The notes: generated from the sequence alone by a model not told the origin. Positions 11,040-20,950 are shown, numbered from the stretch's first letter. The stretch: DNA of 64,000 bases from Patescibacteria group bacterium (GCA_035549315.1 DASZRC010000003.1:10374-74373), one strand, 5' to 3'. Program-made: numbers and translations.

Positions 11040-11291
11040 TTATTCTGGTCTAACCACAAAAGGAAGAAACGCAAGATATCTAGCTCTTTTCACTTCAGTT
11101 GTAAGTTTTCTTTGATGTTTGCTACAAATTCCTGTTCTAACACGTGAGTGAATCTTTCCACGTTCCGATGTGTACTTTGAAAGCACATCAAACTCTAAAA
11201 AGCTTGGGTTCTTTTTTTCTTTACAGAAAAAACACTCCCCTACTACTTTTTCCGGTCTTCTTTTTCTTGTTATGTTTTTTTTATCTGCCAT
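11040..11291 (-). CDS. rpsR: 30S ribosomal protein S18
   Basis: KYTSERGKIHSRVRTGICSKHQRKLTTEVKRARYLAFLPF matches the S18 core. Lies in the rpsF-ssb-rpsR operon. Confidence 0.9.
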   Translation of the reverse strand: MADKKNITRKRRPEKVVGECFFCKEKKNPSFLEFDVLSKYTSERGKIHSRVRTGICSKHQRKLTTEVKRARYLAFLPFVVRPE

Positions 11292-11355
11292 ATAATTTTA
11301 TGTTTATTTGTATTTCGCTTTTCGCAATTCGTTAATACGAACTACGATTAACTTT

Positions 11356-11853
11356 TTAGAAAGGGATGTCGTCCGGATTTACTTCTGGACTTTCTTCCTC
11401 AGTCTTTTTTGGACTTTCACTTGCCTTAGCTTTCTTAATAGGCTTAGAAGCTTCTGCTTCCATTGGTAAGTCCTCATCTACAAAATCTGCTGTCTTTTCC
11501 GCTTCTTCTCCCTGATCACGTCTGTTATCAAGAATAATCATATCATTGATTACAATTTCTGTTACAGACTTTTGTGCTCCGTCTTGTCCTGTCCAGCTTC
11601 TGTTAGCAAGTCTTCCTTCAACGTAAATCTTTCTTCCCTTTGTCAAAAGCTGTGAACAAAGTTCTGCTAACTTGTTCCAAGCAACGATTCTGTGAAATTC
11701 TGCTTCTTCCTTCTTTTCTCCCGAATCTGTAACCCAACCTCTATTTGTTGCAATTCCAAAAGTACAAACTGCAGTACCCTGCGGAGTGTATCTCAACTCT
11801 GGATCCCGCGTTAGATTACCTATTAACTCAACCTTATTTAAACTTCTTGCCAT
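11356..11853 (-). CDS. ssb: Single-stranded DNA-binding protein
   Basis: OB-fold N-terminus (VELIGNLTRDPELRYTPQG) and the acidic C-terminal tail ending DDIPF. Confidence 0.9.
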   Translation of the reverse strand: MARSLNKVELIGNLTRDPELRYTPQGTAVCTFGIATNRGWVTDSGEKKEEAEFHRIVAWNKLAELCSQLLTKGRKIYVEGRLANRSWTGQDGAQKSVTEIVINDMIILDNRRDQGEEAEKTADFVDEDLPMEAEASKPIKKAKASESPKKTEEESPEVNPDDIPF

Positions 11854-11855
11854 TT

Positions 11856-12131
11856 TTAATTAGTACGAACCAAAAGGTGACGCAAAATTTCATCTTTTAT
11901 TAAAAGCTTCTTGTTATAGTCTGAAGTTACATTGTCTGTTGCAAAATTTATTACAACATATTCCCCACTTCTCTGACTTTTAATTGGGTAAGCAAGCTTT
12001 TTTTCACCAATAGACTCTACTTTGTCCTCTTTGACATCTCCCATTATTTTCTTAACTTCGTCAAAAAGTTTGTCCTTTTGGTCTTTCTTTAAATCTGATT
12101 TTAACAACAAAACTAACTGATAATTTCTCAT
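11856..12131 (-). CDS. rpsF: 30S ribosomal protein S6 (start trimmed to MRNYQLV)
   Basis: MRNYQLVLLLKSDL is the typical S6 N-terminus. Operon context with ssb and rpsR. Confidence 0.85.
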   Translation of the reverse strand: MRNYQLVLLLKSDLKKDQKDKLFDEVKKIMGDVKEDKVESIGEKKLAYPIKSQRSGEYVVINFATDNVTSDYNKKLLIKDEILRHLLVRTN

Positions 12132-12186
12132 TGGTTCTCGTAATGATACAAAATTAAGCCTCAAATTACAATAGTTAAATGGAATT

Positions 12187-13314
12187 TTACTGCGTGGATT
12201 GAGCTAATGTTGCTTTTAGGTCAATAGACTTGTCATCCCTAAAAACCTTTATATCAACCGTTTGTCCAACCTTTTTATTATTAATTATTGCGGCAAGACT
12301 TTTTGTATCATCTATTTTTTCTCCATCAATTTGCGTAATAATATCATCCCGCTGAACTCCAGCCTTCTCTGCGGGTGAACCTTCAACTACATCTCTTACA
12401 AGTGCCCCTTCATGTAAATCATTTGCCGCAGCTTGCTCTTTGTCTATTAATACGTAAGACACTCCCAAGAAAGCCCTGTTAAACTGTCCTGTTTTGTTGA
12501 ATGAGTCCAAAGATTGCTTAACCAGGTTAATAGGAATAGCAAAGCCAATGTTTTGCCCCTGTGATGCAACGGCCGTATTAATACCAATAACTTGTCCTGC
12601 AGAATTAAGAAGAGGCCCACCGGAATTACCCGGGTTAATTGCCGCGTCTGTTTGGATTACATTATCCAATTGCTCTACAAACCCTTCCATGGGAGAACCG
12701 GCATTAATTCCACGGCCAAGACCTGAAATAACTCCTGTTGTAACGGTATTTCTAAATTCTCCAAGAGCCGTACCAATTGCTATAGCAAATTGTCCAACTT
12801 GAAGCTTGTCCGAATCCCCAAAGGCAATTGGCTTTAAGCCTTCTTTTGGCGGATTTGAAATTTTAAGTATTGCTAAATCATTTAGAGGATCGCGATAAAT
12901 GTTTCCAATACTATATTTATTGCCTTTGGAATCTACAACTACATAAGTAACCCCCTGCTCGCTCACTACGTGCTTATTGGTGACTACCAAACCATCTTTT
13001 GAAACTATAAATCCGCTTCCTATATAGTCTTCTTCTTGTTTTCCTATTGTTGGGGTTGGTTCTTGGAAGAAAAATGAAAATGGACTATTCTCTTGTGAGG
13101 CTCTATCGCTAGTTTTAACTCCAACTGTAATTACAGATGGACCAACATTTTTTACTACATCTATTACATCCGACTGCTCTTTTACAAAAGGCGAGACGGT
13201 GTTAATAGAAGGCACAGATTGTTTATTTAGGAGTGCTGGTGCGTAATTTGTAAACGCCTCCCAAATAGCAAGAATAACTGCCAAAATTACTACAAATATT
13301 ATTAATCTACGCAT
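12187..13314 (-). CDS. htrA: HtrA/DegP-family serine protease (trypsin-like S1C with C-terminal PDZ)
   Basis: Catalytic triad context (GNSGGPLLN), N-terminal TM anchor, C-terminal PDZ segment. Confidence 0.85.
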   Translation of the reverse strand: MRRLIIFVVILAVILAIWEAFTNYAPALLNKQSVPSINTVSPFVKEQSDVIDVVKNVGPSVITVGVKTSDRASQENSPFSFFFQEPTPTIGKQEEDYIGSGFIVSKDGLVVTNKHVVSEQGVTYVVVDSKGNKYSIGNIYRDPLNDLAILKISNPPKEGLKPIAFGDSDKLQVGQFAIAIGTALGEFRNTVTTGVISGLGRGINAGSPMEGFVEQLDNVIQTDAAINPGNSGGPLLNSAGQVIGINTAVASQGQNIGFAIPINLVKQSLDSFNKTGQFNRAFLGVSYVLIDKEQAAANDLHEGALVRDVVEGSPAEKAGVQRDDIITQIDGEKIDDTKSLAAIINNKKVGQTVDIKVFRDDKSIDLKATLAQSTQ

Positions 13315-13401: not shown

Positions 13402-13956
13402 ATGTCTTCAAAACCAATAGTAAGAAAAGTTGTAGAGGAAGTAGCTGAAAAACCGCTGAAAGCCGTGGCTGAGGAAGGCGGAAAACAACTAAAAGCTGCA
13501 AGCCGCGACTTTGTTCAACAGCTGTTTGGAACTACTGATTTATCTGATAGCGATGTTGTCCAAAGAAGAATGGAGGACAAAGTGGCTGCTTCCCAAAACA
13601 TTGACTACATTCATAGAGAATTGGGAATGATGTCCGGGAAAAAAACCGAAACAATAAACCAACAAAACAAACAACAGTCAAATGAACTGTTAAAACGAGA
13701 ACTACATCGTGAACAGGTGGCAGAGGTTGTAGATAACAAAAGAAAAGGACCAACCCAACAAGAAATCGACAGAAGACGCCTGGAAGATTTGGAAAATGAA
13801 AAGAAAAATATAAACCTACAAAGGAAACAGGCAATGATGGCTCCGGTTGAAGCCCCAATGGGAAGAAAAACCGGAATGCCAAAAAGAAAATCTGCTCCCC
13901 ACCGCATGCAACCTCCAAAAACTAGTGAAAACAAAGCCGGCAGCTCTAGAGAATAA
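13402..13956 (+). CDS. Hypothetical low-complexity K/E/Q-rich protein
   Basis: ORF with strongly charged, coiled-coil-like composition. No family recognised. Confidence 0.4.
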   Translation: MSSKPIVRKVVEEVAEKPLKAVAEEGGKQLKAASRDFVQQLFGTTDLSDSDVVQRRMEDKVAASQNIDYIHRELGMMSGKKTETINQQNKQQSNELLKRELHREQVAEVVDNKRKGPTQQEIDRRRLEDLENEKKNINLQRKQAMMAPVEAPMGRKTGMPKRKSAPHRMQPPKTSENKAGSSRE

Positions 13957-13970
13957 TATTAGGCACAAAT

Positions 13971-13999
13971 TTGACAAAAGATTGATCTTTTGGCATAAT
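13971..13999 (+). promoter_or_regulatory. Sigma70-like promoter TTGACA-N17-CATAAT
   Basis: TTGACA at 13971-13976, exact 17-nt spacer, CATAAT at 13994-13999. Confidence 0.5.
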
Positions 14000-14106
14000 C
14001 AAAATCGTGAAAAGCAAATCTACTTTAAACCATTGGTATCACATCGTCTCCAAGGCGGCTGTGATTTTTGTGGTCTAAAATAGCAAATTAATTTCACAAA
14101 TAGCAA

Positions 14107-14128
14107 CCGCCGAAAGGGCGGTTTTTTT
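14107..14128 (+). terminator. Intrinsic terminator (CCGCC-GAAA-GGCGG hairpin plus T7) ending 19 nt before the aminotransferase ATG
   Basis: Perfect GC-rich stem, GNRA-like loop, TTTTTTT tract. Only functional on the + strand. Confidence 0.7.
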
Positions 14129-14146: not shown

Positions 14147-15229
14147 ATGAAAATTTCGAACAAATTTAAACAATTTATGGAATCTAATCAGCAAATGTAC
14201 TGGATGCAGGACAGAAATGATATGGAGATAGATCTCTCACTTAGCGAAAACCCGCTAGGCTGCTCTCCTATGGTTAGAGATGCTCTATCTGAATCCAATG
14301 GCATAAATCACTATCCAGATCCGACAAACTCTAAATTAAAAACTAAATTGGCTGAAGAATTTTTACTGAACAAAGCAAATATAGCCATTGGGAATGGTAT
14401 AGGCCCCATTTTTGATGCCATTTGCAGAATAATTCTCGATGAAGGTGAAAACGTGATTATTCCACAACTTACTTTCCCTCTTATTGAACAATTAGTGAGG
14501 CTTAATTCTGGTAAACCCAAATTAATTCCCATGAAGTTAGATCTGACAACAAATTTGGAAACGATAGAAAGAGGAATAGATAAGAAAACTAAAGCTGTAT
14601 GCCTATGTAATCCCAATAACCCTACCGGAGAAGTGATATCAAGCAAAAAACTTATTAATTTGGCAAAGAAAATTTCACCCCTACTTTTAATCGTGGATGA
14701 GGCCAATATAGATTTTGGAGGCAAGAGCATTATCAACAGCATAAAATCTCAAAACAATATTGTTGTGTTAAGAACTTTCTCTAAAGGCTTTGGACTAGCC
14801 GGATTAAGAATCGCATTTATGGCTGCCCAAGAAGATATAGTGGATATGGTTGAAGAAATATTGATTTCATCCGAAATGAGCTCCGTTTCTCAATTGGCAG
14901 CTTTAACTGCTTTATGTGACAGAAAATTTCTATATGCAACTAGAGAATTTGTAAAACAAGAAAGAAAGTTTTTAGTTGATGAATTAACTTCTAGAGGCTT
15001 TGAGGTTGTTCCCGGCAAAGCTCTAAATATTCTAGTGAAAGTTAACGATTTCTTTTCCTCCTCTTCTTTACTATGCACTGAGTTGGAAAAAAGAGGTGTA
15101 AAAACTGTGAATGGAAATTGCTTTCAGGGGCTAGGAGAAAATTTTTTGAGAATATCCCCTCGTACAAGAGAAATAAATTTACTATTTTTAAAAGTTCTGG
15201 ATGAATTGTTAGAAAGGAGTTCAAATTAA
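14147..15229 (+). CDS. Class I/II (HisC-family) PLP-dependent aminotransferase; start moved from GTG 14129 to ATG 14147
   Basis: LSLSENPLGCSP (the HisC N-terminal motif), NPNNPTG, and FSKGFGLAGLRIAF containing the PLP-binding Lys. Confidence 0.75.
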   Translation: MKISNKFKQFMESNQQMYWMQDRNDMEIDLSLSENPLGCSPMVRDALSESNGINHYPDPTNSKLKTKLAEEFLLNKANIAIGNGIGPIFDAICRIILDEGENVIIPQLTFPLIEQLVRLNSGKPKLIPMKLDLTTNLETIERGIDKKTKAVCLCNPNNPTGEVISSKKLINLAKKISPLLLIVDEANIDFGGKSIINSIKSQNNIVVLRTFSKGFGLAGLRIAFMAAQEDIVDMVEEILISSEMSSVSQLAALTALCDRKFLYATREFVKQERKFLVDELTSRGFEVVPGKALNILVKVNDFFSSSSLLCTELEKRGVKTVNGNCFQGLGENFLRISPRTREINLLFLKVLDELLERSSN

Positions 15230-15230
15230 A

Positions 15231-16700
15231 ATGCTTGAACAATTTCAAAATATTGAAAACAGACAGAATACTTCATTAATAAATGAGTGGATTAACACTT
15301 CTTTACCATTTATACAAAGAAGGGACCAAATGGTAAGAGATTTGCAACAAGGGTTAGTGGAAATGGACGGATCTGACATAGTTTTTACTAGCGGACTTAG
15401 GGCGCCTAAATACCTTGCAAAAACAATGATGCTATGGGCAAATGAAGGTCCGCTATTTTTAGGATCATACTGCCACCCGGAACAATTTGATCTTTATACT
15501 GCAACCGCGTCTATTAATGCATCTCTGTTTTTAAAACAGTTAGCAACAAGAGGTAGAACGGTAGATAGACACGAAATGGCTGAAAATTGGTATGAAACGG
15601 TTGCTCTTGATAGAACGCTCACTACCCCATTTAGCTATGGCGATATATTTGGTGTAAAAAATGATTTTCTTGGACTTGGGGGTGTTAAATATGGAACTGA
15701 ACCATTATCCATAGAGGATCAGCAAGATCTTCTTGAACAAACCGACTGCATGGAGATAAGCACATCTATTGTAGGGAGACTATCGACTGAAATACTTAAC
15801 GAGCAAAATACAATAGGGCTTAATAGGCCACAGAAAAAAATGCAACAAGAAGCAATAGCATCACTTGTTTCTTCTAGACTCCAAGAAATAAAAGATTTAG
15901 CTGCTTCTTCACTTGAAGGAGTTGCTGGACAAAACCCAAGAATAGACGACTTCCTAATGATATTTGAACAAAAGTTTTTTGGAAAAATTATTAAAACCCA
16001 ACCTATTCCTTTAGAACCCAGGTTATCAGATATAGTTGGGATAGAAAGCACACTCTTCTCTAATAATCGCAGGCACCTCAGTTTAATTTTTAAGACTCTG
16101 GAAATTCTAAATAACGAATTTGGCCCTCAAATATTTAAAAAACTTATTGAGTCATCTAGCGAAGGGCTGTTTTTTGGCAATCTAAACGGAAGAGAAACCG
16201 ATATTACCGTAGCCGATGATACAAAAGAGTTTATTCTAAGAGATAGAAAAACCGGAGCAATGGGGACAATATTAAGCGATGATAGCATGATAGGTTTTGT
16301 TAGGGACAATAATTTTCTCCCCTTGGCCAAATCCGAGATGCTTGCCGTTGCAAGCGGTGCTACAACTTTACATATGGGATCGGAACACGGAAATAGAGAA
16401 AAAGTTCTAGATGCTCTAGGCATAAATAAAGATCAATATTTTGAATTTAGATCATTTATGAATGGTATGAGAGTAGGTCAAGATTTGGAGCAGGGACACC
16501 CCGTAATAAAAATAGAAGGTGTAGCTAGATTTATCTCACCAATTCTCCTATATGCACTTTTGGGAAAAGACTTTCTTAGATCAAGAATTTTAGCCAAATC
16601 TGGAACACGAGATGAGTCTGACATATTCACAAATAAGGAGTTTAGAGTTTTTTGTGCAAAAGAGTTAGTAAAATTGACAACTCCCACTGATTTAATATGA
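15231..16700 (+). CDS. Hypothetical protein (489 aa), operon member with no recognisable family
   Basis: Long ORF tightly packed between the aminotransferase (2-nt gap) and the M29 peptidase (ATGA overlap). Confidence 0.55.
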   Translation: MLEQFQNIENRQNTSLINEWINTSLPFIQRRDQMVRDLQQGLVEMDGSDIVFTSGLRAPKYLAKTMMLWANEGPLFLGSYCHPEQFDLYTATASINASLFLKQLATRGRTVDRHEMAENWYETVALDRTLTTPFSYGDIFGVKNDFLGLGGVKYGTEPLSIEDQQDLLEQTDCMEISTSIVGRLSTEILNEQNTIGLNRPQKKMQQEAIASLVSSRLQEIKDLAASSLEGVAGQNPRIDDFLMIFEQKFFGKIIKTQPIPLEPRLSDIVGIESTLFSNNRRHLSLIFKTLEILNNEFGPQIFKKLIESSSEGLFFGNLNGRETDITVADDTKEFILRDRKTGAMGTILSDDSMIGFVRDNNFLPLAKSEMLAVASGATTLHMGSEHGNREKVLDALGINKDQYFEFRSFMNGMRVGQDLEQGHPVIKIEGVARFISPILLYALLGKDFLRSRILAKSGTRDESDIFTNKEFRVFCAKELVKLTTPTDLI

Positions 16701-17809
16701 ATAAAACAAAAAAAATATTAACTAATTTCCTTAAAAATATAGCAAAAATTCATTATGGGAATAGTGTTTTAATTATATCCTCTTTGGGAAAAGGGAATAA
16801 CAATGGATATGAAATCGGAAAAGCCATCTTTGAAGTTTGTGAACATATAGGGTGTAAAGTAAATTTGGTTGTTCAAACACCTCGCCTTTTCTCAAAACCC
16901 ATGGATCATATAGTCCGAAACAGCATGATGGAAAACTACGATATAGTTTTTCAGACAGATGTTGATAAATTAGGACACGATCCTATCGGTGCAGCCACAC
17001 CATATTTAATAGGAAAAAATAAATACACAAATATTCTTTATTACCGAAAAGCCAAAAAAGAAATCACTGCATATTGGTTTGACGTATCAGATATCGACAA
17101 ATGGCTAAATTCTATTGATATTGACTATGAAGAAATGGGAAAGCTGTCTATAGATCTTGAAGAAAAGCTTAAAAAAACAAAATATATTCGCGTAATTAGT
17201 GATGGAGGGAAAAATCAACTTAAATTAAAGGTAGATAGAACAAACTTTCCTCGATCTGATTATAGCCCTAAGCGGTCCATAAAAGGCGCTGGAGGCAATA
17301 TTCCATTCGGAGAGACACTTATAACTCCCGATAATTCTTTTGCAACGGGAAGTTTGGTTGTGGATGGAAGCTTCTACAATGAGCTGGAAGAAAATACCGT
17401 AATAGTAGAAACACCAATAACATTGTCATTCAGAAATGGCAAGTTATCCGAAATAAAAGGAGATAAAGAAGCAGAAACACTTACGCATATACTTAAAACA
17501 GTTAAAAAACAAACCGTTAGAATGGCGATAAAAAATAAACACATTACCAAAAACTATCTTAATAACATCTACGGGATAAATGAATTTGCTATAGGAACAA
17601 ACAAAAATGCAACCATATCCGGCGATCTAGTTATTGATGAAAAAACATATGGCACAGCACACATAGCACTTGGCAGAAGCTATGATGGTGATCCTGCTTT
17701 TTTACATTGTGATCTTATTGTAAAAAAGCCTAAAATTATTTTTGAATATTACTCAGGTAAAAGTGAAATAATCGTTAATGAAAACGTAATACTACCCACA
17801 CAAACTTGA
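16697..17809 (+). CDS. Aminopeptidase, M29 (AmpS/aminopeptidase T) family
   Basis: GGNIPFGETLITP, EFAIGTN...DEKTYGTAHIALGRSY and HCDLIV match the conserved M29 metal-binding blocks. Confidence 0.65.
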   Translation: MNKTKKILTNFLKNIAKIHYGNSVLIISSLGKGNNNGYEIGKAIFEVCEHIGCKVNLVVQTPRLFSKPMDHIVRNSMMENYDIVFQTDVDKLGHDPIGAATPYLIGKNKYTNILYYRKAKKEITAYWFDVSDIDKWLNSIDIDYEEMGKLSIDLEEKLKKTKYIRVISDGGKNQLKLKVDRTNFPRSDYSPKRSIKGAGGNIPFGETLITPDNSFATGSLVVDGSFYNELEENTVIVETPITLSFRNGKLSEIKGDKEAETLTHILKTVKKQTVRMAIKNKHITKNYLNNIYGINEFAIGTNKNATISGDLVIDEKTYGTAHIALGRSYDGDPAFLHCDLIVKKPKIIFEYYSGKSEIIVNENVILPTQT

Positions 17810-17810
17810 T

Positions 17811-18764
17811 ATGGAAATATTTGATTTACACATAGACCTTTCTTCATTTTGTCTTACATCAGGACGGGGAAGTATTGAAAATAAAAATAGATTGGGTGAT
17901 TTTTTCTTACCTGACCAAGTGGATATCCCAAGATTAAAAAAAGGTAAAGTGAAGATTCTATTGGCCAATATTTGCCCGATCCTTGCTACTCCCCAGGGTT
18001 TTGAGCTCCCTGAGAACAGTATTAATGAAACTATGCGACAAATTAATTTTTATAAAACTCTTAAAGGTATAAATTTAATAGATAATTTAAATTCTAGGCT
18101 AAAAGGCATTTCGGCCCTACTTTCAATTGAAGGGGCTTATTTTATAGAACAAAAGAAAGATCTAGCATTATTGATTGAACTTAGAAAACTTGGCGTTGTT
18201 TCTATTTCTCCAACCTGGAATATAGATAACGCCCTAGGTACGGGTGCCGGTAATCAAAATTCTAAGACAGGATTAACAAGACTTGGACAGGAGTTTATTG
18301 AAATGTGTGAGGACACTGGCATAATAATAGACGCAGTTCACTCGAGCAGGGCTACATTCAAAGATATAGCAAGCTTTTCAAAGAAACCTTTCTTTGTTTC
18401 CCATACTGCTTCTTATACTGTAAATAATCATAGGAGGAATCTAAAAGATACTGAGATTAGAAGGGTTGCGAATAGCGGTGGAATAATTGGTTTAAGTTTT
18501 ATTAAAGACTTTATTGGTGGAAACTCAATAAATCTAGTTACCAAGCACTTAAAACATCTTCTAAACGTTGCTGGGGAAGATCATGTAGCAATTGGTAGCG
18601 ACTTTGATGGAATGGGTCAGGGAGATTTAATAAGGGGCATTGAAGATATTGGTATGATGCAGGGCTTATTCGAATTTTTTAAAATGAGTGGAATTAATAA
18701 TAGAATACTTGAAAAAGTTGCATGTAAAAATGCCCAAAAGTTCTTCAGAGATTCTCTAAAATAG
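17811..18764 (+). CDS. Membrane dipeptidase, M19 family
   Basis: DLHID, DAVHSS, VSHTAS and IGSDFDG blocks typical of renal-dipeptidase-family metallohydrolases. Confidence 0.65.
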   Translation: MEIFDLHIDLSSFCLTSGRGSIENKNRLGDFFLPDQVDIPRLKKGKVKILLANICPILATPQGFELPENSINETMRQINFYKTLKGINLIDNLNSRLKGISALLSIEGAYFIEQKKDLALLIELRKLGVVSISPTWNIDNALGTGAGNQNSKTGLTRLGQEFIEMCEDTGIIIDAVHSSRATFKDIASFSKKPFFVSHTASYTVNNHRRNLKDTEIRRVANSGGIIGLSFIKDFIGGNSINLVTKHLKHLLNVAGEDHVAIGSDFDGMGQGDLIRGIEDIGMMQGLFEFFKMSGINNRILEKVACKNAQKFFRDSLK

Positions 18765-18783
18765 ATATGATATTATTAAACGT

Positions 18784-19986
18784 ATGATAGAACCAAAAAC
18801 ACTTAAGGGGTTCCGTGACTTTTTGCCACGAGAAGCTAGAAAAAGACAATATGTCATTGATACCTTGAAAAAGGTATTTGAGTCTTATGGCTTTGAACCG
18901 CTTGAAACACCAACTCTTGAACTTGATGAGATACTAACAGGAAAATACGGCGAAGAAGGCGAACAATTAATGTATAGGTTTGAGGATAAAGGCGGACGAA
19001 AAGTTGCTATGCGTTATGACCAAACCGTACCTTTAGCCCGCGTTATAGCCCAATATGAAGGCAAACTCACTCTACCCTTTAAGCGTTACCAAATATCTAA
19101 TGTTTGGCGAGGTGAAAATACACAAGCCGGTAGATATAGGGAATTTTTACAGTGCGATGCTGACATTATTGGCTCTCCAAGTAGCGTAGCTGATGCTGAA
19201 ACCCTGGCGCTAGTTCTTGATATTTACTCTACCCTAGGACTTGATGTCCAGATAAAAATAAATGATAGGGCTAACTTTGAAGGATTAGATAAAAAATATG
19301 TTTCGGCAATCGATAAGTTAGACAAGATTGGGGAAGAAGGCGTAATTTCTGAATTAATTCAAAAAGGAATGAGTGAATCAGATGCAAAAGCTGCTCTTAG
19401 TAAGCTCCAAAATACTTTCTTAACGGCTAGAATTCACAAAATATTGGCAGATTTAAAAGCTATGGGGAAAGACGTAGGAAGAGTTAATTATATTCCTACT
19501 CTGGCACGCGGTCTTGATTACTACACCGGGATGATCTTTGAAACGGTTGCCGAGGGAAGCACCGGATCAATATGTAGCGGAGGACGCTGGGATGAAATGA
19601 TTGGGGTTTTTACCGGCAAAAGATATCCTGCCGTAGGATTTGGGCTTGGTTTTGACAGAACCGTTGAGGTTCTAGAAAGAAAAAACCTTATCCCGGACCT
19701 TACGGCAAAAACACAAGTTCTTGTGACGATCTTTTCATCCGATTTGCTCCAAAAATCTCTTGAAACAGTTGCTTCCATAAGGGAAGCTGGAATTGAGGCT
19801 GAGATTTATCTTGATGAAGGTGCAAAAATGGAGAAACAGATAAAGTATGCAAATACCAAACAAATACCTTATGTTGTAATTGTAGGACCAAAAGAAGTAG
19901 AAGATAAGACAATTACAGTAAAAAATCTTGCAACTGGCGAGCAAAAAACTGTTAGCTTGGAAAATCTTCCACAGATAATTGAATAA
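18784..19986 (+). CDS. hisS: Histidyl-tRNA synthetase (compact, 400 aa)
   Basis: KGFRDFLP N-terminal motif, class II aaRS motifs, C-terminal anticodon-binding domain. Confidence 0.85.
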   Translation: MIEPKTLKGFRDFLPREARKRQYVIDTLKKVFESYGFEPLETPTLELDEILTGKYGEEGEQLMYRFEDKGGRKVAMRYDQTVPLARVIAQYEGKLTLPFKRYQISNVWRGENTQAGRYREFLQCDADIIGSPSSVADAETLALVLDIYSTLGLDVQIKINDRANFEGLDKKYVSAIDKLDKIGEEGVISELIQKGMSESDAKAALSKLQNTFLTARIHKILADLKAMGKDVGRVNYIPTLARGLDYYTGMIFETVAEGSTGSICSGGRWDEMIGVFTGKRYPAVGFGLGFDRTVEVLERKNLIPDLTAKTQVLVTIFSSDLLQKSLETVASIREAGIEAEIYLDEGAKMEKQIKYANTKQIPYVVIVGPKEVEDKTITVKNLATGEQKTVSLENLPQIIE

Positions 19987-19988
19987 AC

Positions 19989-20912
19989 ATGAAACTGTCC
20001 AAAACTCAAATGGCCGTAATTGCATTAATGGCAGCCAACACCATTTGGGGAGCCGGCCCACCCTTTTTTAAATTAGCTTTAGAAAACATAGGTCCTTTTA
20101 CTCTGGCCTTTCTTAGGTTTTTTATAGCATCAGCCATAATCTTCCCTTTTGCCAAAAAATTTCTAAGGGTTGAAAAGGCGGATATGGCAGAGGTTTTTTT
20201 AGCAGGATTTTTAGGAATAGTTGTTAATATTTCTTTTTTCTTCTTGGGTTTAAAGCTTGCCCCCAGCATTAACTCTTCTATTATTACGTCCGCAGGTCCT
20301 GTTTTTTTACTATTAGCATCTTTTGTTTTTTTGGGAGAAAGACTAAAGAAAAAATTGGTAATAGGTACATTTGTGGGTCTATTTGGAGTCATATTAATAA
20401 TATTTGAACCAATATTTTCCACTGAGCCCAATCTGGATTTTATTGGTAACCTCTTCTTCTTTATTTCAATGCTTGGGGCAATTGCACACACTATAATTGG
20501 GCGGGAACTAGTCAAAAAATATAATCCACTTGGTGTTACTTTCTGGACATTTTTTCTTGCATCTCTTTGTTTCTTACCAATGGCAGTCAGTGAAAATATT
20601 CGTCAGAGCTTCTTACTAACTATCAATTTTTCCGTTATTTTTGCCATTCTCTGGGGGGCAATCTTCAGCTCGACAATCGCATATTTTTTCCTCTTCTGGG
20701 CACTCAAATATATGCCTGCAGCCTCCACCGGAGTGTTTACCTACATGGATCCGATTGCGACTATAGTTGTTGCTTACTTCTTGCTTGGTGAAAAACCCGA
20801 CACTTTTTATCTTGTAGGATCTTTATTTATATTCCTAGGGATCTACATTGCAGAAAGACGAATCCACTACCACCCTATCCATTTACTTCGACAAGGCCAA
20901 AACCAATCCTAG
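19989..20912 (+). CDS. EamA/DMT-family transporter
   Basis: Ten predicted TM helices arranged as two EamA-like repeats. Confidence 0.7.
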   Translation: MKLSKTQMAVIALMAANTIWGAGPPFFKLALENIGPFTLAFLRFFIASAIIFPFAKKFLRVEKADMAEVFLAGFLGIVVNISFFFLGLKLAPSINSSIITSAGPVFLLLASFVFLGERLKKKLVIGTFVGLFGVILIIFEPIFSTEPNLDFIGNLFFFISMLGAIAHTIIGRELVKKYNPLGVTFWTFFLASLCFLPMAVSENIRQSFLLTINFSVIFAILWGAIFSSTIAYFFLFWALKYMPAASTGVFTYMDPIATIVVAYFLLGEKPDTFYLVGSLFIFLGIYIAERRIHYHPIHLLRQGQNQS

Positions 20913-20950
20913 CCTTGATAATCTAGCCTAGAAGAGGTATAATACTAGTA

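What the first reader, a model, noticed from the sequence alone, without database searches (positions are those of the whole stretch)
14147..18764. Four-gene operon coupling a HisC-family aminotransferase to a 489-aa orphan protein and two peptidases (M29, M19)
The genes are packed with 2-nt gaps or 4-nt overlaps, which implies translational coupling. An aminotransferase followed by an aminopeptidase and a dipeptidase suggests a pathway that releases and transaminates amino acids from peptides, or edits a peptide-like small molecule. The 489-aa middle gene has no motif I can recognise. In a genome expected to lack His biosynthesis, a HisC-like enzyme is itself unexpected.
Basis: partly seen in the sequence, partly recalled or inferred. 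Interest (0 to 1): 0.5.

Follow-up and report, generated by a model that had tools for sequence, protein, structure and literature searches.

The report
Starvation-switched amino-acid scavenging operon, new enzyme
In a tiny-genome (Patescibacteria) bacterium, a classical ribosome-sensing RNA switch that detects a shortage of histidine and aromatic amino acids appears to control an operon of peptide-cutting enzymes, a transaminase, histidyl-tRNA synthetase and a previously unrecognised enzyme family shaped like a tRNA synthetase.

Summary
The four tightly packed genes are real, but the unit is larger. It runs promoter, leader peptide, terminator (13971-14128), HisC-family aminotransferase, 489-aa orphan, M29-like protein, M19 dipeptidase, HisRS, DMT transporter (to 20912).

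Across 13 lineages the conserved partner is the M19 dipeptidase (10 of 13). A PepT-like M20 or an AstE/AspA-type hydrolase replaces it once each. The aminotransferase and M29 genes are accessory.

Upstream lies a leader ORF that starts at about the transcription start, with a Trp/Tyr/His/Phe codon cluster and mutually exclusive antiterminator and terminator hairpins. This design recurs across the family. In other metagenomes it precedes trpEG, DAHP synthase, chorismate mutase-pheS, amino-acid racemases and HisRS.

Best reading: an attenuator-controlled amino-acid scavenging operon. The reaction of the BshC-like enzyme remains inferred only.

The parts
13971..13999 (+). Sigma-70-type promoter (TTGACA, 17 nt, CATAAT, with TG extension)
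   Evidence: 11 of 12 consensus matches. Identical in the sister MAG. The -10 box ends 7 nt before the leader ORF start.
14007..14078 (+). Leader-peptide ORF with little or no 5' UTR: (V/M)KSKSTLNHWYHIVSKAAVIFVV*
   Evidence: The ORF is conserved in frame in L001 (MNRKSFLNHWYHNASKAAVILVV*) and close relatives occur in L054 and L055. Only 0.9% of small ORFs in the window carry a W-containing run of at least four W/Y/F/H residues.
14031..14042 (+). Regulatory codons CAT TGG TAT CAC (His-Trp-Tyr-His)
   Evidence: An equivalent aromatic/His run is present in 10 further family leaders.
14038..14065 (+). Hairpin 1:2. Region 1 (14038-14049) overlaps the regulatory codons. Region 2 (14053-14065) contains GGCGG.
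   Evidence: MFE fold with z = -3.9. The consensus fold of four HWYH leaders keeps this hairpin.
14053..14063 (+). Antiterminator segment (region 2), complementary to the terminator's 5' arm (CAACCGCC, 14103-14111)
   Evidence: Duplex energy -13.3 kcal/mol, reached by 3 of 300 shuffles. Against real sequence windows from the same loci, the combined p over 12 leaders is about 9e-11. Region 2 co-varies with the terminator arm among loci.
14105..14128 (+). Intrinsic terminator AACCGCC-GAAAG-GGCGGTT followed by T7 (regions 3:4)
   Evidence: The tail TTTTTTTGTGG occurs only here in the 64-kb window.
14147..15229 (+). HisC-family class I/II aminotransferase (360 aa); probably an aromatic/histidine transaminase
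   Evidence: PF00155 at 160 bits. TIGR01141 hisC at 226 bits, below the 276.55 cutoff. Best PDB hits are HisC 8bj1 (117 bits) and putative Phe aminotransferase 4r2n (112 bits). dN/dS is 0.08 against L001.
15231..16700 (+). 489-aa orphan: new BshC-like protein family with a class-I aaRS fold
16697..17809 (+). M29-fold metalloprotein (370 aa); probable aminopeptidase
   Evidence: Own Pfam score is 22.9 bits, below the gathering score of 27. Homologues carry PF02073. The family profile hits NicX 2.5e-14, AmpS 1e-9, PepS 2e-8 and AmpT 6e-5. Invariant columns are E206, E296, E315, H322, H337, D339.
17811..18764 (+). M19 (renal-type) dipeptidase, 317 aa; the conserved partner of the orphan
   Evidence: PF01244 at 212 bits. 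PDB relatives are 3fdg, Sco3058, DPEP1 and GliJ. The motifs IEGA, DAVHS, VSHT and GSDFDG align with 3fdg, and an N-terminal HID is present.
18784..19986 (+). Histidyl-tRNA synthetase, 19 nt after M19
   Evidence: tRNA-synt_His at 142 bits plus HGTP_anticodon. No terminator lies between M19 and HisRS. 90% identical to the L001 protein.
19989..20912 (+). EamA/DMT transporter, 2 nt after HisRS
   Evidence: Best NCBIfam models are the 2A78 carboxylate/amino acid/amine transporter (70 bits) and the aromatic amino acid exporter YddG (66 bits), both below cutoff.

Best explanation
The locus is an amino-acid-starvation-inducible scavenging operon controlled by a ribosome-mediated transcription attenuator.

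Proposed mechanism:
1. Transcription starts at a strong promoter.
2. The first codons of the transcript encode a 23-residue leader peptide containing His-Trp-Tyr-His.
3. If the matching charged tRNAs are plentiful, the ribosome runs to the stop codon and covers region 2. The GC-rich terminator forms and transcription stops 18 nt before the aminotransferase gene.
4. If they are scarce, the ribosome stalls on the HWYH codons and melts hairpin 1:2. Region 2 (GGCGG) then pairs with the terminator's 5' arm (CCGCC).
5. RNA polymerase reads through into the aminotransferase, the BshC-like protein, the M29-like protein, the M19 dipeptidase, HisRS and a DMT transporter.

The products raise the supply and use of histidine and aromatic amino acids in an organism that presumably cannot make them. 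The peptidases release them from peptides, the HisC-type transaminase makes them from the keto acids, and HisRS charges them.

The evolutionarily conserved core is the pair 'BshC-like protein + M19 dipeptidase'. I infer that the BshC-like protein is an enzyme that binds a nucleotide (ATP) and an amino-acid or dipeptide substrate at the remodelled HIGH/KMSKS site, and that it acts on the same amide-linked substrate pool as the dipeptidase. It would be a ligase or activating enzyme of the MshC/BshC type.

Shown: the gene content, the fold, the conserved pairing, and the leader/terminator/antiterminator anatomy with its recurrence.
Inferred: actual read-through control, the direction of metabolic flux, and the orphan's reaction.
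For: Attenuator:
- The promoter, leader ORF and terminator are all present.
- Leader folds have z-scores of -3.9 and -4.6.
- The same layout occurs upstream of the orphan cluster in 10 further loci, with leader peptides such as FYWHFH, NFWFYTF, YWHYFY and VWHHY.
- Region 2 to region 3 complementarity is -13 to -21 kcal/mol, reached by 0-4 of 300 shuffles. The combined p is about 9e-11 against real sequence from the same loci. The region-2 sequence co-varies with the terminator arm.
- The -10 box ends 6-12 nt before the leader start in nearly all cases, so there is little or no 5' UTR.
- The leader DNA is 89% identical to L001 and its pS is 0.21, while synonymous sites of the flanking genes are saturated at pS 0.69-0.84.
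- Positive controls: leaders of the same design precede trpE-trpG, two DAHP synthase types, chorismate mutase-pheS, Asp/Glu-type racemases, and a His-racemase-like gene followed by HisRS.
- The leader content tracks the downstream synthetase: TrpRS in L002 and L007, PheRS in L003, HisRS in the window and L055, and an RRRR leader with ArgRS and an arginase-like gene in L009.

Orphan:
- The AF2 model is confident and the fold searches point to BshC.
- The conserved motifs S-x-x-H-P-E-E after beta-1 and H-M-G-S-E-x-G-x-R after the last Rossmann strand are the best-conserved positions of the family.
- It is under purifying selection.

Pairing:
- M19 follows directly, or one gene away, in 10 of 13 lineages.
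- It is replaced by a PepT-like M20 in L007 and by an AstE/AspA-type hydrolase in L009.
Against: - No experiment exists. Attenuation is inferred from sequence alone.
- In the window the leader starts with GTG, which is a poor start codon for an mRNA with no 5' UTR. L001 has ATG.
- Individual loci are only marginally significant for the antiterminator under the strict control: window 0.04, L002 0.11, L007 0.25.
- The fusion-protein locus L010 and the loci L014 and L016 lack a clear aromatic leader.
- The orphan lacks the canonical HIGH and KMSKS residues, including the second lysine used for adenylate formation, so ATP-dependent ligation is not assured.
- Its closest structural relative, BshC, has itself never been reconstituted in vitro (PMC5790435).
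- Why a ligase-type enzyme should be induced by amino-acid shortage is not obvious.
- Profile-profile similarity to BshC is insignificant (probability 2.6%).
- Only 64 kb of the genome was seen, so auxotrophy is assumed from the phylum rather than shown.
Confidence: 0.6

Rival explanations
1. The BshC-like protein is not a catalyst. It is an amino-acid-binding regulatory or specificity subunit of the dipeptidase, in the way the HisRS paralogue HisZ regulates HisG. It would tune peptide hydrolysis to the amino-acid pool.
For: The canonical catalytic residues are degenerate: HPEE instead of HIGH, HMGSE instead of KMSKS. The orphan and M19 genes overlap or abut in many loci, which suggests a stoichiometric complex. 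The operon responds to amino-acid shortage. The HisZ precedent is established knowledge cited from memory.
Against: The most conserved positions of the family are exactly the two nucleotide-site motifs plus charged residues (H82, H381, S384, E385, R389, D418), which looks like an active site. In the window an M29-like gene separates the two genes. In L014/L015 the orphan stands alone.
Confidence: 0.15
2. The module makes a small aminoacyl-amine or N-acyl dipeptide-like metabolite by the mycothiol/bacillithiol logic: a metal-dependent deacylase frees an amine, a class-I aaRS-like ligase adds an amino acid, and a GNAT acetylates it. The product could be, for example, a low-molecular-weight thiol or osmolyte of CPR bacteria.
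For: The closest folds are BshC and MshC. In L009 an AstE/AspA-type zinc hydrolase gene overlaps the start of a GNAT::orphan fusion gene. Together these reproduce the three activities of MshB, MshC and MshD.
Against: No glycosyltransferase or other scaffold-making gene appears in any of the 13 neighbourhoods. The cluster is controlled by aromatic/His (or Arg) leader peptides and embedded in aaRS operons, which fits supply rather than consumption of amino acids. The family does not match the BshC models.
Confidence: 0.1
3. The short upstream ORF is a RiPP-type precursor peptide. The orphan, M29 and M19 proteins would be its tailoring enzyme and proteases, and the DMT protein its exporter.
For: A conserved short ORF with an aromatic core lies directly upstream of enzymes, peptidases and a transporter.
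Against: Only the aromatic run and the RNA pairing are conserved; the rest of the peptide is not. The stop-codon position relative to region 2, and the co-variation of region 2 with the terminator, fit attenuation. Leaders of the same design control trpEG, DAHP synthase and chorismate mutase-pheS, which are not RiPP genes. An Arg-rich variant goes with ArgRS.
Confidence: 0.05
4. The adjacency is fortuitous: unrelated housekeeping genes packed together in a very compact genome.
For: CPR genomes are dense, and many neighbours are translation genes.
Against: Orphan and M19 are adjacent down to 21-26% identity between orphans, including the most distant member found. The hydrolase partner has been replaced by non-orthologous hydrolases. 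The shared leader recurs across loci.
Confidence: 0.02

Closest known systems
BshC (bacillithiol synthase, 'cysteine-adding enzyme'; PDB 4wbd; Pfam PF10079)
   Different: 11-12% identity. No hit to the BshC Pfam or NCBIfam models for any of 26 members. hhalign probability is 2.6%. No bshA or bshB is nearby. The partner is a dipeptidase. The cluster is under an amino-acid attenuator. So far the family is found only in Patescibacteria-like contigs. BshC's own reaction is unresolved.
MshC, CysRS and class-I LysRS (class-I aminoacyl-tRNA synthetase catalytic domains)
   Different: The motifs read HPEE and HMGSExGxR. No anticodon-binding domain is recognisable. There is no sequence similarity to the window's own CysRS. 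The protein is acidic (pI 5.2).
Leader-peptide transcription attenuators of enterobacterial trp, pheA, his and pheST operons (Rfam Trp_leader, Phe_leader, His_leader)
   Same: A short ORF with regulatory codons, mutually exclusive 1:2, 2:3 and 3:4 pairings, and an intrinsic terminator just before the first gene. The controlled genes concern the same amino acids. As with pheST, they include tRNA synthetases (established knowledge, from memory).
   Different: Rfam recognises none of the leaders: no gathering-level hit, with Trp_leader at 14.8 bits and Phe_leader at 13.3 bits. The leader ORF starts at about the transcription start, with no Shine-Dalgarno. It has a single Trp codon within a mixed W/Y/H/F run rather than tandem identical codons. 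In the window it controls scavenging genes rather than biosynthesis. I found no paper describing such attenuators in Patescibacteria.
Cysteine-responsive short ORFs without a 5' UTR that attenuate operons in mycobacteria (recalled from memory; not checked in the library)
   Same: Small ORFs translated from the 5' end of the transcript, whose codon content couples downstream operon expression to the supply of one amino acid.
   Different: Different phylum and a different amino acid. Here an explicit terminator/antiterminator pair is visible.
Bacterial M19 dipeptidases (Sco3058, Rhodobacter 3fdg) and human DPEP1
   Same: Gene 4 is a full-length M19 protein in which the motifs IEGA, DAVHS, VSHT and GSDFDG align with 3fdg and an N-terminal HID is present. 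I read these as the metal-binding and catalytic motifs of the family; that assignment is from memory.
   Different: About 85 bits to the nearest solved structure. It is obligately paired with the BshC-like protein. Substrate unknown.

Membership tests
BshC family (PF10079 / NCBIfam BshC model) | Significant match to the family's sequence models | tested here: not met
   No Pfam or NCBIfam hit for any of the 26 members, even at E<=10. hhalign against a 15-sequence BshC alignment gives probability 2.6%.
BshC family (PF10079 / NCBIfam BshC model) | BshC-type three-dimensional fold | tested here: met
BshC family (PF10079 / NCBIfam BshC model) | Genomic co-occurrence with bshA and bshB; required for bacillithiol synthesis | not testable with these tools
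   No glycosyltransferase or LmbE-type deacetylase appears in any of the 13 neighbourhoods. Whole genomes were not available.
Class-I aminoacyl-tRNA synthetase | HIGH signature after the first Rossmann strand | tested here: not met
   The position holds S-x-x-H-P-E-[EQ]. Only the first His (H82) is invariant.
Class-I aminoacyl-tRNA synthetase | KMSKS signature after the last Rossmann strand | tested here: not met
   The position holds H-M-G-S-E-x-G-x-R. G383 and S384 are invariant in the 26-member alignment and nearly invariant once the two most distant members are added. Neither lysine is present.
Class-I aminoacyl-tRNA synthetase | Rossmann-type catalytic fold | tested here: met
Class-I aminoacyl-tRNA synthetase | Anticodon-binding domain and tRNA aminoacylation | tested here: inconclusive
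   No anticodon-domain Pfam hit. The C-terminal roughly 90 residues are helical. Activity cannot be tested here.
Ribosome-mediated (leader-peptide) transcription attenuator | Short translated ORF enriched in codons of the regulating amino acids | tested here: met
   HWYH in the window, and W/Y/F/H runs in 10 further family leaders. The background frequency is 0.9% of small ORFs. The ORF is preserved in frame between the window and L001.
Ribosome-mediated (leader-peptide) transcription attenuator | Intrinsic terminator directly upstream of the first structural gene | tested here: met
   A 7-bp GC-rich stem plus T7 at 14105-14128, 18 nt before the ATG. Equivalent terminators occur in all family leaders.
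Ribosome-mediated (leader-peptide) transcription attenuator | Mutually exclusive antiterminator overlapping the terminator's 5' arm and placed just after the regulatory codons | tested here: met
   Duplex energies and controls are (combined p about 9e-11). Region 2 starts 7-14 nt after the aromatic run in every locus. It co-varies with the terminator arm sequence among loci.
Ribosome-mediated (leader-peptide) transcription attenuator | Controlled genes concern the sensed amino acids | tested here: met
   HisRS, TrpRS, PheRS, trpEG, DAHP synthase, chorismate mutase and His-racemase-like genes lie behind leaders of this design.
Ribosome-mediated (leader-peptide) transcription attenuator | Read-through increases when the cognate tRNA is uncharged | not testable with these tools
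   Needs reporter or in-vitro transcription-translation assays.
Rfam leader families (Trp_leader, Phe_leader, His_leader) | Score at or above the gathering threshold | tested here: not met
   Trp_leader 14.8 bits against a threshold of 41; Phe_leader 13.3 against 55. No gathering-level hit in 12 sources.
Histidinol-phosphate aminotransferase HisC (TIGR01141 equivalog) | Score above the equivalog cutoff | tested here: not met
   226.3 bits against a cutoff of 276.55. The PDB scores for HisC and a putative Phe aminotransferase are nearly equal. No other his gene is in the window.
Peptidase M19 | Full-length Pfam match and the family's conserved metal-site motifs | tested here: met
   212 bits over profile positions 8-318 of 319. 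IEGA, DAVHS, VSHT and GSDFDG align with 3fdg. An N-terminal HID is present. Which residues bind metal is taken from memory.
Peptidase M29 | Pfam match above the gathering score; peptidase-type conserved acidic and histidine positions | tested here: inconclusive
   Own score is 22.9, below 27. Homologues carry PF02073. The family profile hits AmpS, PepS and AmpT, but its best hit is the M29-fold dioxygenase NicX. Invariant E296, E315, H322, H337 and D339 fit the peptidase pattern as I recall it.

The most novel reading that the evidence does not exclude
The BshC-like protein and its dipeptidase together carry out a previously undescribed, nucleotide-dependent amino-acid salvage reaction that CPR bacteria switch on when a specific tRNA goes uncharged. 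Candidate reactions include activation or ring-opening of cyclic or D-residue-containing dipeptides, or transfer of an aminoacyl group from a conjugate. Working this reaction out could also reveal the long-missing chemistry of BshC itself. In parallel, these loci would be the first documented leader-peptide attenuators in Patescibacteria, of a type with no 5' UTR.
Probability: 0.3. Interest if true: 0.85.

Novelty: new variant of a known kind. Interest (0 to 1): 0.7.

Why it matters
1. It assigns a fold, conserved site motifs, an obligatory partner and a physiological trigger to a protein family that has no annotation in any library. The family's only structural relative, BshC, catalyses a reaction that has resisted reconstitution for more than a decade. 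A second, differently wired branch of that fold gives a new handle on the problem.

2. It indicates that ultra-small, host-dependent CPR bacteria, usually described as having few regulators, use classical ribosome-coupled attenuation. The targets are not biosynthesis genes but peptide scavenging, transamination, racemisation and tRNA charging. This makes their amino-acid economy directly testable.

3. The attenuator's codon content (His/Trp/Tyr/Phe, or Arg) predicts the amino acid each operon serves. That offers a way to annotate transporters, racemases and unknown genes in uncultured lineages.

Tried and rejected
- Sequence searches of the orphan (Pfam, NCBIfam, PADLOC, PDB sequences as single sequence and as profile) found nothing.
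- hhalign against the window's own CysRS found nothing. hhalign against BshC, as a single sequence and as a 15-sequence profile, was insignificant.
- The first AF2 model from 6 sequences was mediocre (pLDDT 73) and was replaced by a 26-sequence model.
- The AFDB50 fold library was unavailable, so annotated AlphaFold relatives could not be examined.
- The BshC structure paper could not be read.
- The search for related loci with the 26-sequence alignment failed for lack of a conserved block. With the 6-sequence alignment it added only one new genome, a Daviesbacteria MAG.
- A riboswitch or T-box in the leader was considered and rejected: no Rfam hit, and the conserved small ORF with alternative hairpins explains the conservation.
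- An anti-phage defence role was rejected (no PADLOC hit).
- A histidine-biosynthesis remnant was rejected for the 64 kb examined: no other his genes.
- The metagenome pattern scan returned many chance matches and one recurrent human-gut element that is not a leader. None of the genuine leaders found there had the orphan directly downstream.
- The cluster look-up gave no organism names.
- N-terminal fusion partners: P0021 carries only a weak GNAT match (22 bits; PDB 3ec4 at E 0.03). The 490-residue extension of P0019 matches nothing.

Full report
**1. Observation**

The window is from a Patescibacteria (CPR) MAG. The orphan protein is 100% identical to a 'MAG TPA Patescibacteria group bacterium' hypothetical protein.

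The junctions are a 1-nt spacer, a 4-nt ATGA overlap and a 1-nt spacer.

HisRS follows after 19 nt and an EamA/DMT transporter 2 nt after that. There is no convincing terminator until the next promoter at 20915.

The aminotransferase is HisC-family but falls below the hisC equivalog cutoff (226 against 276.55 bits). Its PDB scores for HisC and for a putative Phe aminotransferase are nearly equal.

Gene 4 is a full-length M19 dipeptidase. The motifs IEGA, DAVHS, VSHT and GSDFDG align with the solved M19 structure 3fdg, and an N-terminal HID is present.

Gene 3 is below Pfam's M29 threshold on its own. Its homologues carry PF02073. A family profile hits AmpS, PepS and AmpT, and best of all the M29-fold dioxygenase NicX. 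The family keeps invariant E/E/H/H/D positions. I call it a probable M29-type aminopeptidase with some reserve.

No other his gene is present in the 64 kb.

**2. The orphan is a new family with a BshC-like class-I aaRS fold**

Nothing matches it in Pfam, NCBIfam, PADLOC or PDB sequences, either as a single sequence or as a profile.

The family is very rare: 6 clusters in the 5.8-billion-protein index and about 30 representatives in an exhaustive profile search of 1.84 billion.

With 26 family members as the alignment, AlphaFold gives pLDDT 92.4 and pTM 0.91.

| Search | Hit | Score |
|---|---|---|
| Foldseek vs PDB | BshC (only significant hit) | probability 1.00, ~447 columns |

At the sequence level the relationship is not detectable. 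hhalign against a BshC alignment gives probability 2.6%. The single aligned stretch is co-linear with the PLAKxE...AGG...GSE motifs.

The family's most conserved positions fall where class-I enzymes carry their signatures, when mapped on the model's secondary structure:
- S-x-x-H82-P-E-E directly after strand 76-81, the HIGH position.
- H381-M-G-S-E-x-G-x-R389 directly after strand 380-382, the KMSKS position.
- N-x-Y-[DE]-T after strand 116-120.

The gene is under strong purifying selection (dN/dS about 0.10 against the sister MAG). I therefore treat it as a nucleotide-site enzyme of the BshC/MshC kind but not as a member of the BshC family.

BshC's own reaction has never been reconstituted (PMC5790435).

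**3. What is conserved around it**

I examined 13 independent lineages.

| Partner arrangement | Lineages |
|---|---|
| M19 dipeptidase directly after the orphan, or one gene away | 10: window/L001, L002, L003, L004, L005, L008, L010, L011, L012/13, L016 |
| PepT-like M20 peptidase instead | 1: Daviesbacteria L007 |
| AstE/AspA-type zinc hydrolase gene overlapping the start of a GNAT::orphan fusion gene | 1: L009 |
| Orphan alone | 1: L014/L015 |

The pairing holds for the most distant family member found (L016).

Non-orthologous replacement of the hydrolase argues for a functional link between the orphan and a metallo-amidohydrolase.

The aminotransferase and the M29-like gene are lineage-specific additions. 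An aminotransferase was, however, recruited a second time from a different subfamily in L003.

A tRNA synthetase gene lies within three genes downstream in five lineages:
- HisRS in the window
- TrpRS in L002 and L007
- PheRS-alpha in L003
- ArgRS in L009

**4. The leader: a ribosome-mediated attenuator**

Between the upstream gene and the aminotransferase lies a near-consensus promoter (13971-13999). A strong terminator follows about 100 nt later (14105-14128).

This intergenic DNA is 89% identical to the sister MAG, although synonymous sites of the flanking genes are saturated. pS is 0.21 in the leader against 0.69-0.84 in the genes.

The region encodes a 23-codon ORF, (V)KSKSTLNHWYHIVSKAAVIFVV*, preserved in frame in L001.

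The same layout precedes the orphan cluster in L002, L003, L004, L005, L007, L008, L011 and L012/13. It consists of a promoter, a short ORF with a Trp/Tyr/His/Phe run, a hairpin, a GC-rich terminator and a T7 run 11-36 nt before the first gene. In L012/13 it occurs twice in tandem.

A W-containing run of at least four W/Y/F/H residues occurs in only 0.9% of small ORFs in the window. The terminator tail TTTTTTTGTGG is unique in the 64 kb.

In every leader, a segment 7-14 nt after the aromatic run (region 2) does two things:
- It pairs back onto the run's 3' flank (region 1).
- Alternatively, it is complementary to the terminator's 5' arm (region 3).

The duplex energies are -13 to -21 kcal/mol, reached by 0-4 of 300 shuffles. 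Under a stricter control with real sequence windows from the same loci, the combined p is about 9e-11.

The region-2 sequence changes together with the terminator arm from locus to locus: GGCGG, GAGGAGG, GCGGAGG, GGAGGG, GGCGGG.

Folds are much more stable than shuffles (z = -3.9 and -4.6). The consensus fold of four HWYH leaders keeps both hairpins.

The -10 box ends 6-12 nt before the leader's start codon in nearly all cases and there is no Shine-Dalgarno. The leader peptides therefore start at or within a few nucleotides of the transcript's 5' end.

Rfam recognises none of them. I found no paper on such attenuators in this phylum.

**5. Positive controls and regulon**

A metagenome-wide scan for 'TGG + two aromatic/His codons ... 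terminator tail' returned many chance hits. It also returned a set of genuine short-ORF-plus-terminator units. Their downstream genes are:
- trpE-trpG (L025, L030)
- DAHP synthases of two types (L094; L040 and L062)
- chorismate mutase followed by pheS (L044)
- Asp/Glu-family racemases (L034, L049, L093, L054)
- in L055, behind an almost identical ...THWYHV... leader, a protein whose only hits are histidine-racemase models, followed by HisRS

In L009 the leader is MKQFITIEDRRRRAS*. It goes with an arginase-family gene and ArgRS.

Leader codon content thus tracks the amino acid served by the operon. This is the behaviour expected of attenuators, and it places the orphan-M19 module in an amino-acid supply regulon.

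**6. Mechanism proposed, and its limits**

Shown:
- the anatomy of the locus
- the fold of the orphan
- the conserved pairing with a hydrolase
- the recurrence of the leader and its co-variation with the terminator
- the identity of the co-regulated genes

Inferred:
- that stalling at the HWYH codons causes read-through
- that the operon raises the His/aromatic amino-acid supply, through peptide hydrolysis by M29 and M19, transamination of keto acids by the HisC-type enzyme, charging by HisRS, and transport by the DMT protein
- that the BshC-like protein is catalytic

The reaction of the BshC-like protein is the weakest link. It lacks the canonical HIGH and KMSKS residues. A ligase induced by shortage is counter-intuitive. 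Its best structural relative is itself mechanistically unsolved.

Alternatives considered:
- a HisZ-like amino-acid-sensing subunit of the dipeptidase
- a mycothiol-like deacylase-ligase-GNAT pathway, suggested by L009
- a RiPP cluster

The last two fit the attenuator evidence poorly.

**7. Verdict**

What is really there is:
1. a new, rare BshC-like class-I aaRS-fold family obligately paired with a dipeptidase; and
2. a family of leader-peptide attenuators with little or no 5' UTR, not previously described in the literature I could search, that ties this pair to His/aromatic (or Arg) limitation in CPR bacteria.

Both are variants of known kinds rather than categorically new. Together they turn an unannotated gene into an experimentally approachable problem.

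Noticed in passing
L012:5712-5989 (also L013:4871-5148): Two leader-plus-terminator units lie in tandem upstream of the orphan-M19 pair: MNLVYRNNHFLFYHYLLS* and MKKMLVYKKFFPLMAFHFYSFILEGLPYYCRI*. Each has its own antiterminator complementarity. This may be a double attenuator that senses Phe/Tyr/His but has no Trp codon.
   Followed up: partly
L009:4717-4815: An Arg-type version of the leader (MKQFITIEDRRRRAS*, with GGAGGG/CCTCC/GGAGG alternative pairing) lies upstream of an AstE/AspA-like hydrolase, a GNAT::orphan fusion, an arginase-family protein, a metallo-beta-lactamase-fold protein and ArgRS.
   Followed up: partly
L055 (minus strand), leader at about 912-1032, then a 218-aa gene and HisRS: A near-identical HWYH leader controls a protein whose only NCBIfam hits are histidine racemases (HisR and CntK, E 2e-13, below cutoff), followed by HisRS. 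This suggests D-His salvage in related CPR bacteria.
   Followed up: partly
L025 and L030, first gene after the leader; L044 first gene (144 aa): Proteins of 270-297 aa and 144 aa with no Pfam match sit directly between aromatic leaders and trpE-trpG or chorismate mutase-pheS. They are candidates for new aromatic-pathway genes.
   Followed up: no
window 13402-13956 (+): A 184-aa Lys/Glu/Gln-rich ORF with no family match lies directly upstream of the operon promoter. It is conserved in position in the sister MAG (187 aa, L001:6170-6733).
   Followed up: no
window 18298-18325 (+): A promoter-like site (TTGAAA, 16 nt, CATAAT with TG; 10 of 12 matches) lies inside the M19 gene. It could give HisRS and the transporter constitutive expression independent of the attenuator.
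   Followed up: no
window 16697-17809 and alignment A6: The best solved-structure match of the M29-like family profile is not a peptidase. It is the Fe(II) ring-cleaving 2,5-dihydroxypyridine dioxygenase NicX (E 2.5e-14, against 1e-9 for AmpS). The family keeps invariant E/H/H/D positions that look peptidase-type.
   Followed up: partly
L008:1709-1900: The M19 gene that follows the orphan here begins MRVFDLHIGASD. The N-terminal H-x-D motif therefore reads H-I-G, a possible variant of what I take to be a metal-binding site. The contig is cut after 64 residues.
   Followed up: no
L004:6116-6221: A SAM-I/IV riboswitch (54.6 bits, gathering score 41.1) lies upstream of a cut ORF on the same CPR-like contig that carries orphan-M19.
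   Followed up: no
P0010 (orphan family) and P0039 (M29-like family): Both list a longest contig of 24,620 bp from Logan. They probably lie on the same contig, which would be a second lineage combining the orphan with the M29-like gene.
   Followed up: no
L021, L026, L028, L048, L053, L063, L065-L070, L073, L082, L086, L089, L091 (human-gut contigs): The leader search pattern hit one recurrent 108-nt element in many gut metagenome contigs, lying in a 49-codon ORF (LSGYQWKR...LWFHGQYECLSP) with only a weak hairpin. It does not look like an attenuator and was set aside as a chance match within a conserved sequence.
   Followed up: no
window 11040-13314 (-) and L001:3854-6102: The conserved block S6-SSB-S18 plus an HtrA-type serine protease with a PDZ domain lies divergently upstream of the operon in both MAGs. 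This is ordinary synteny.
   Followed up: no
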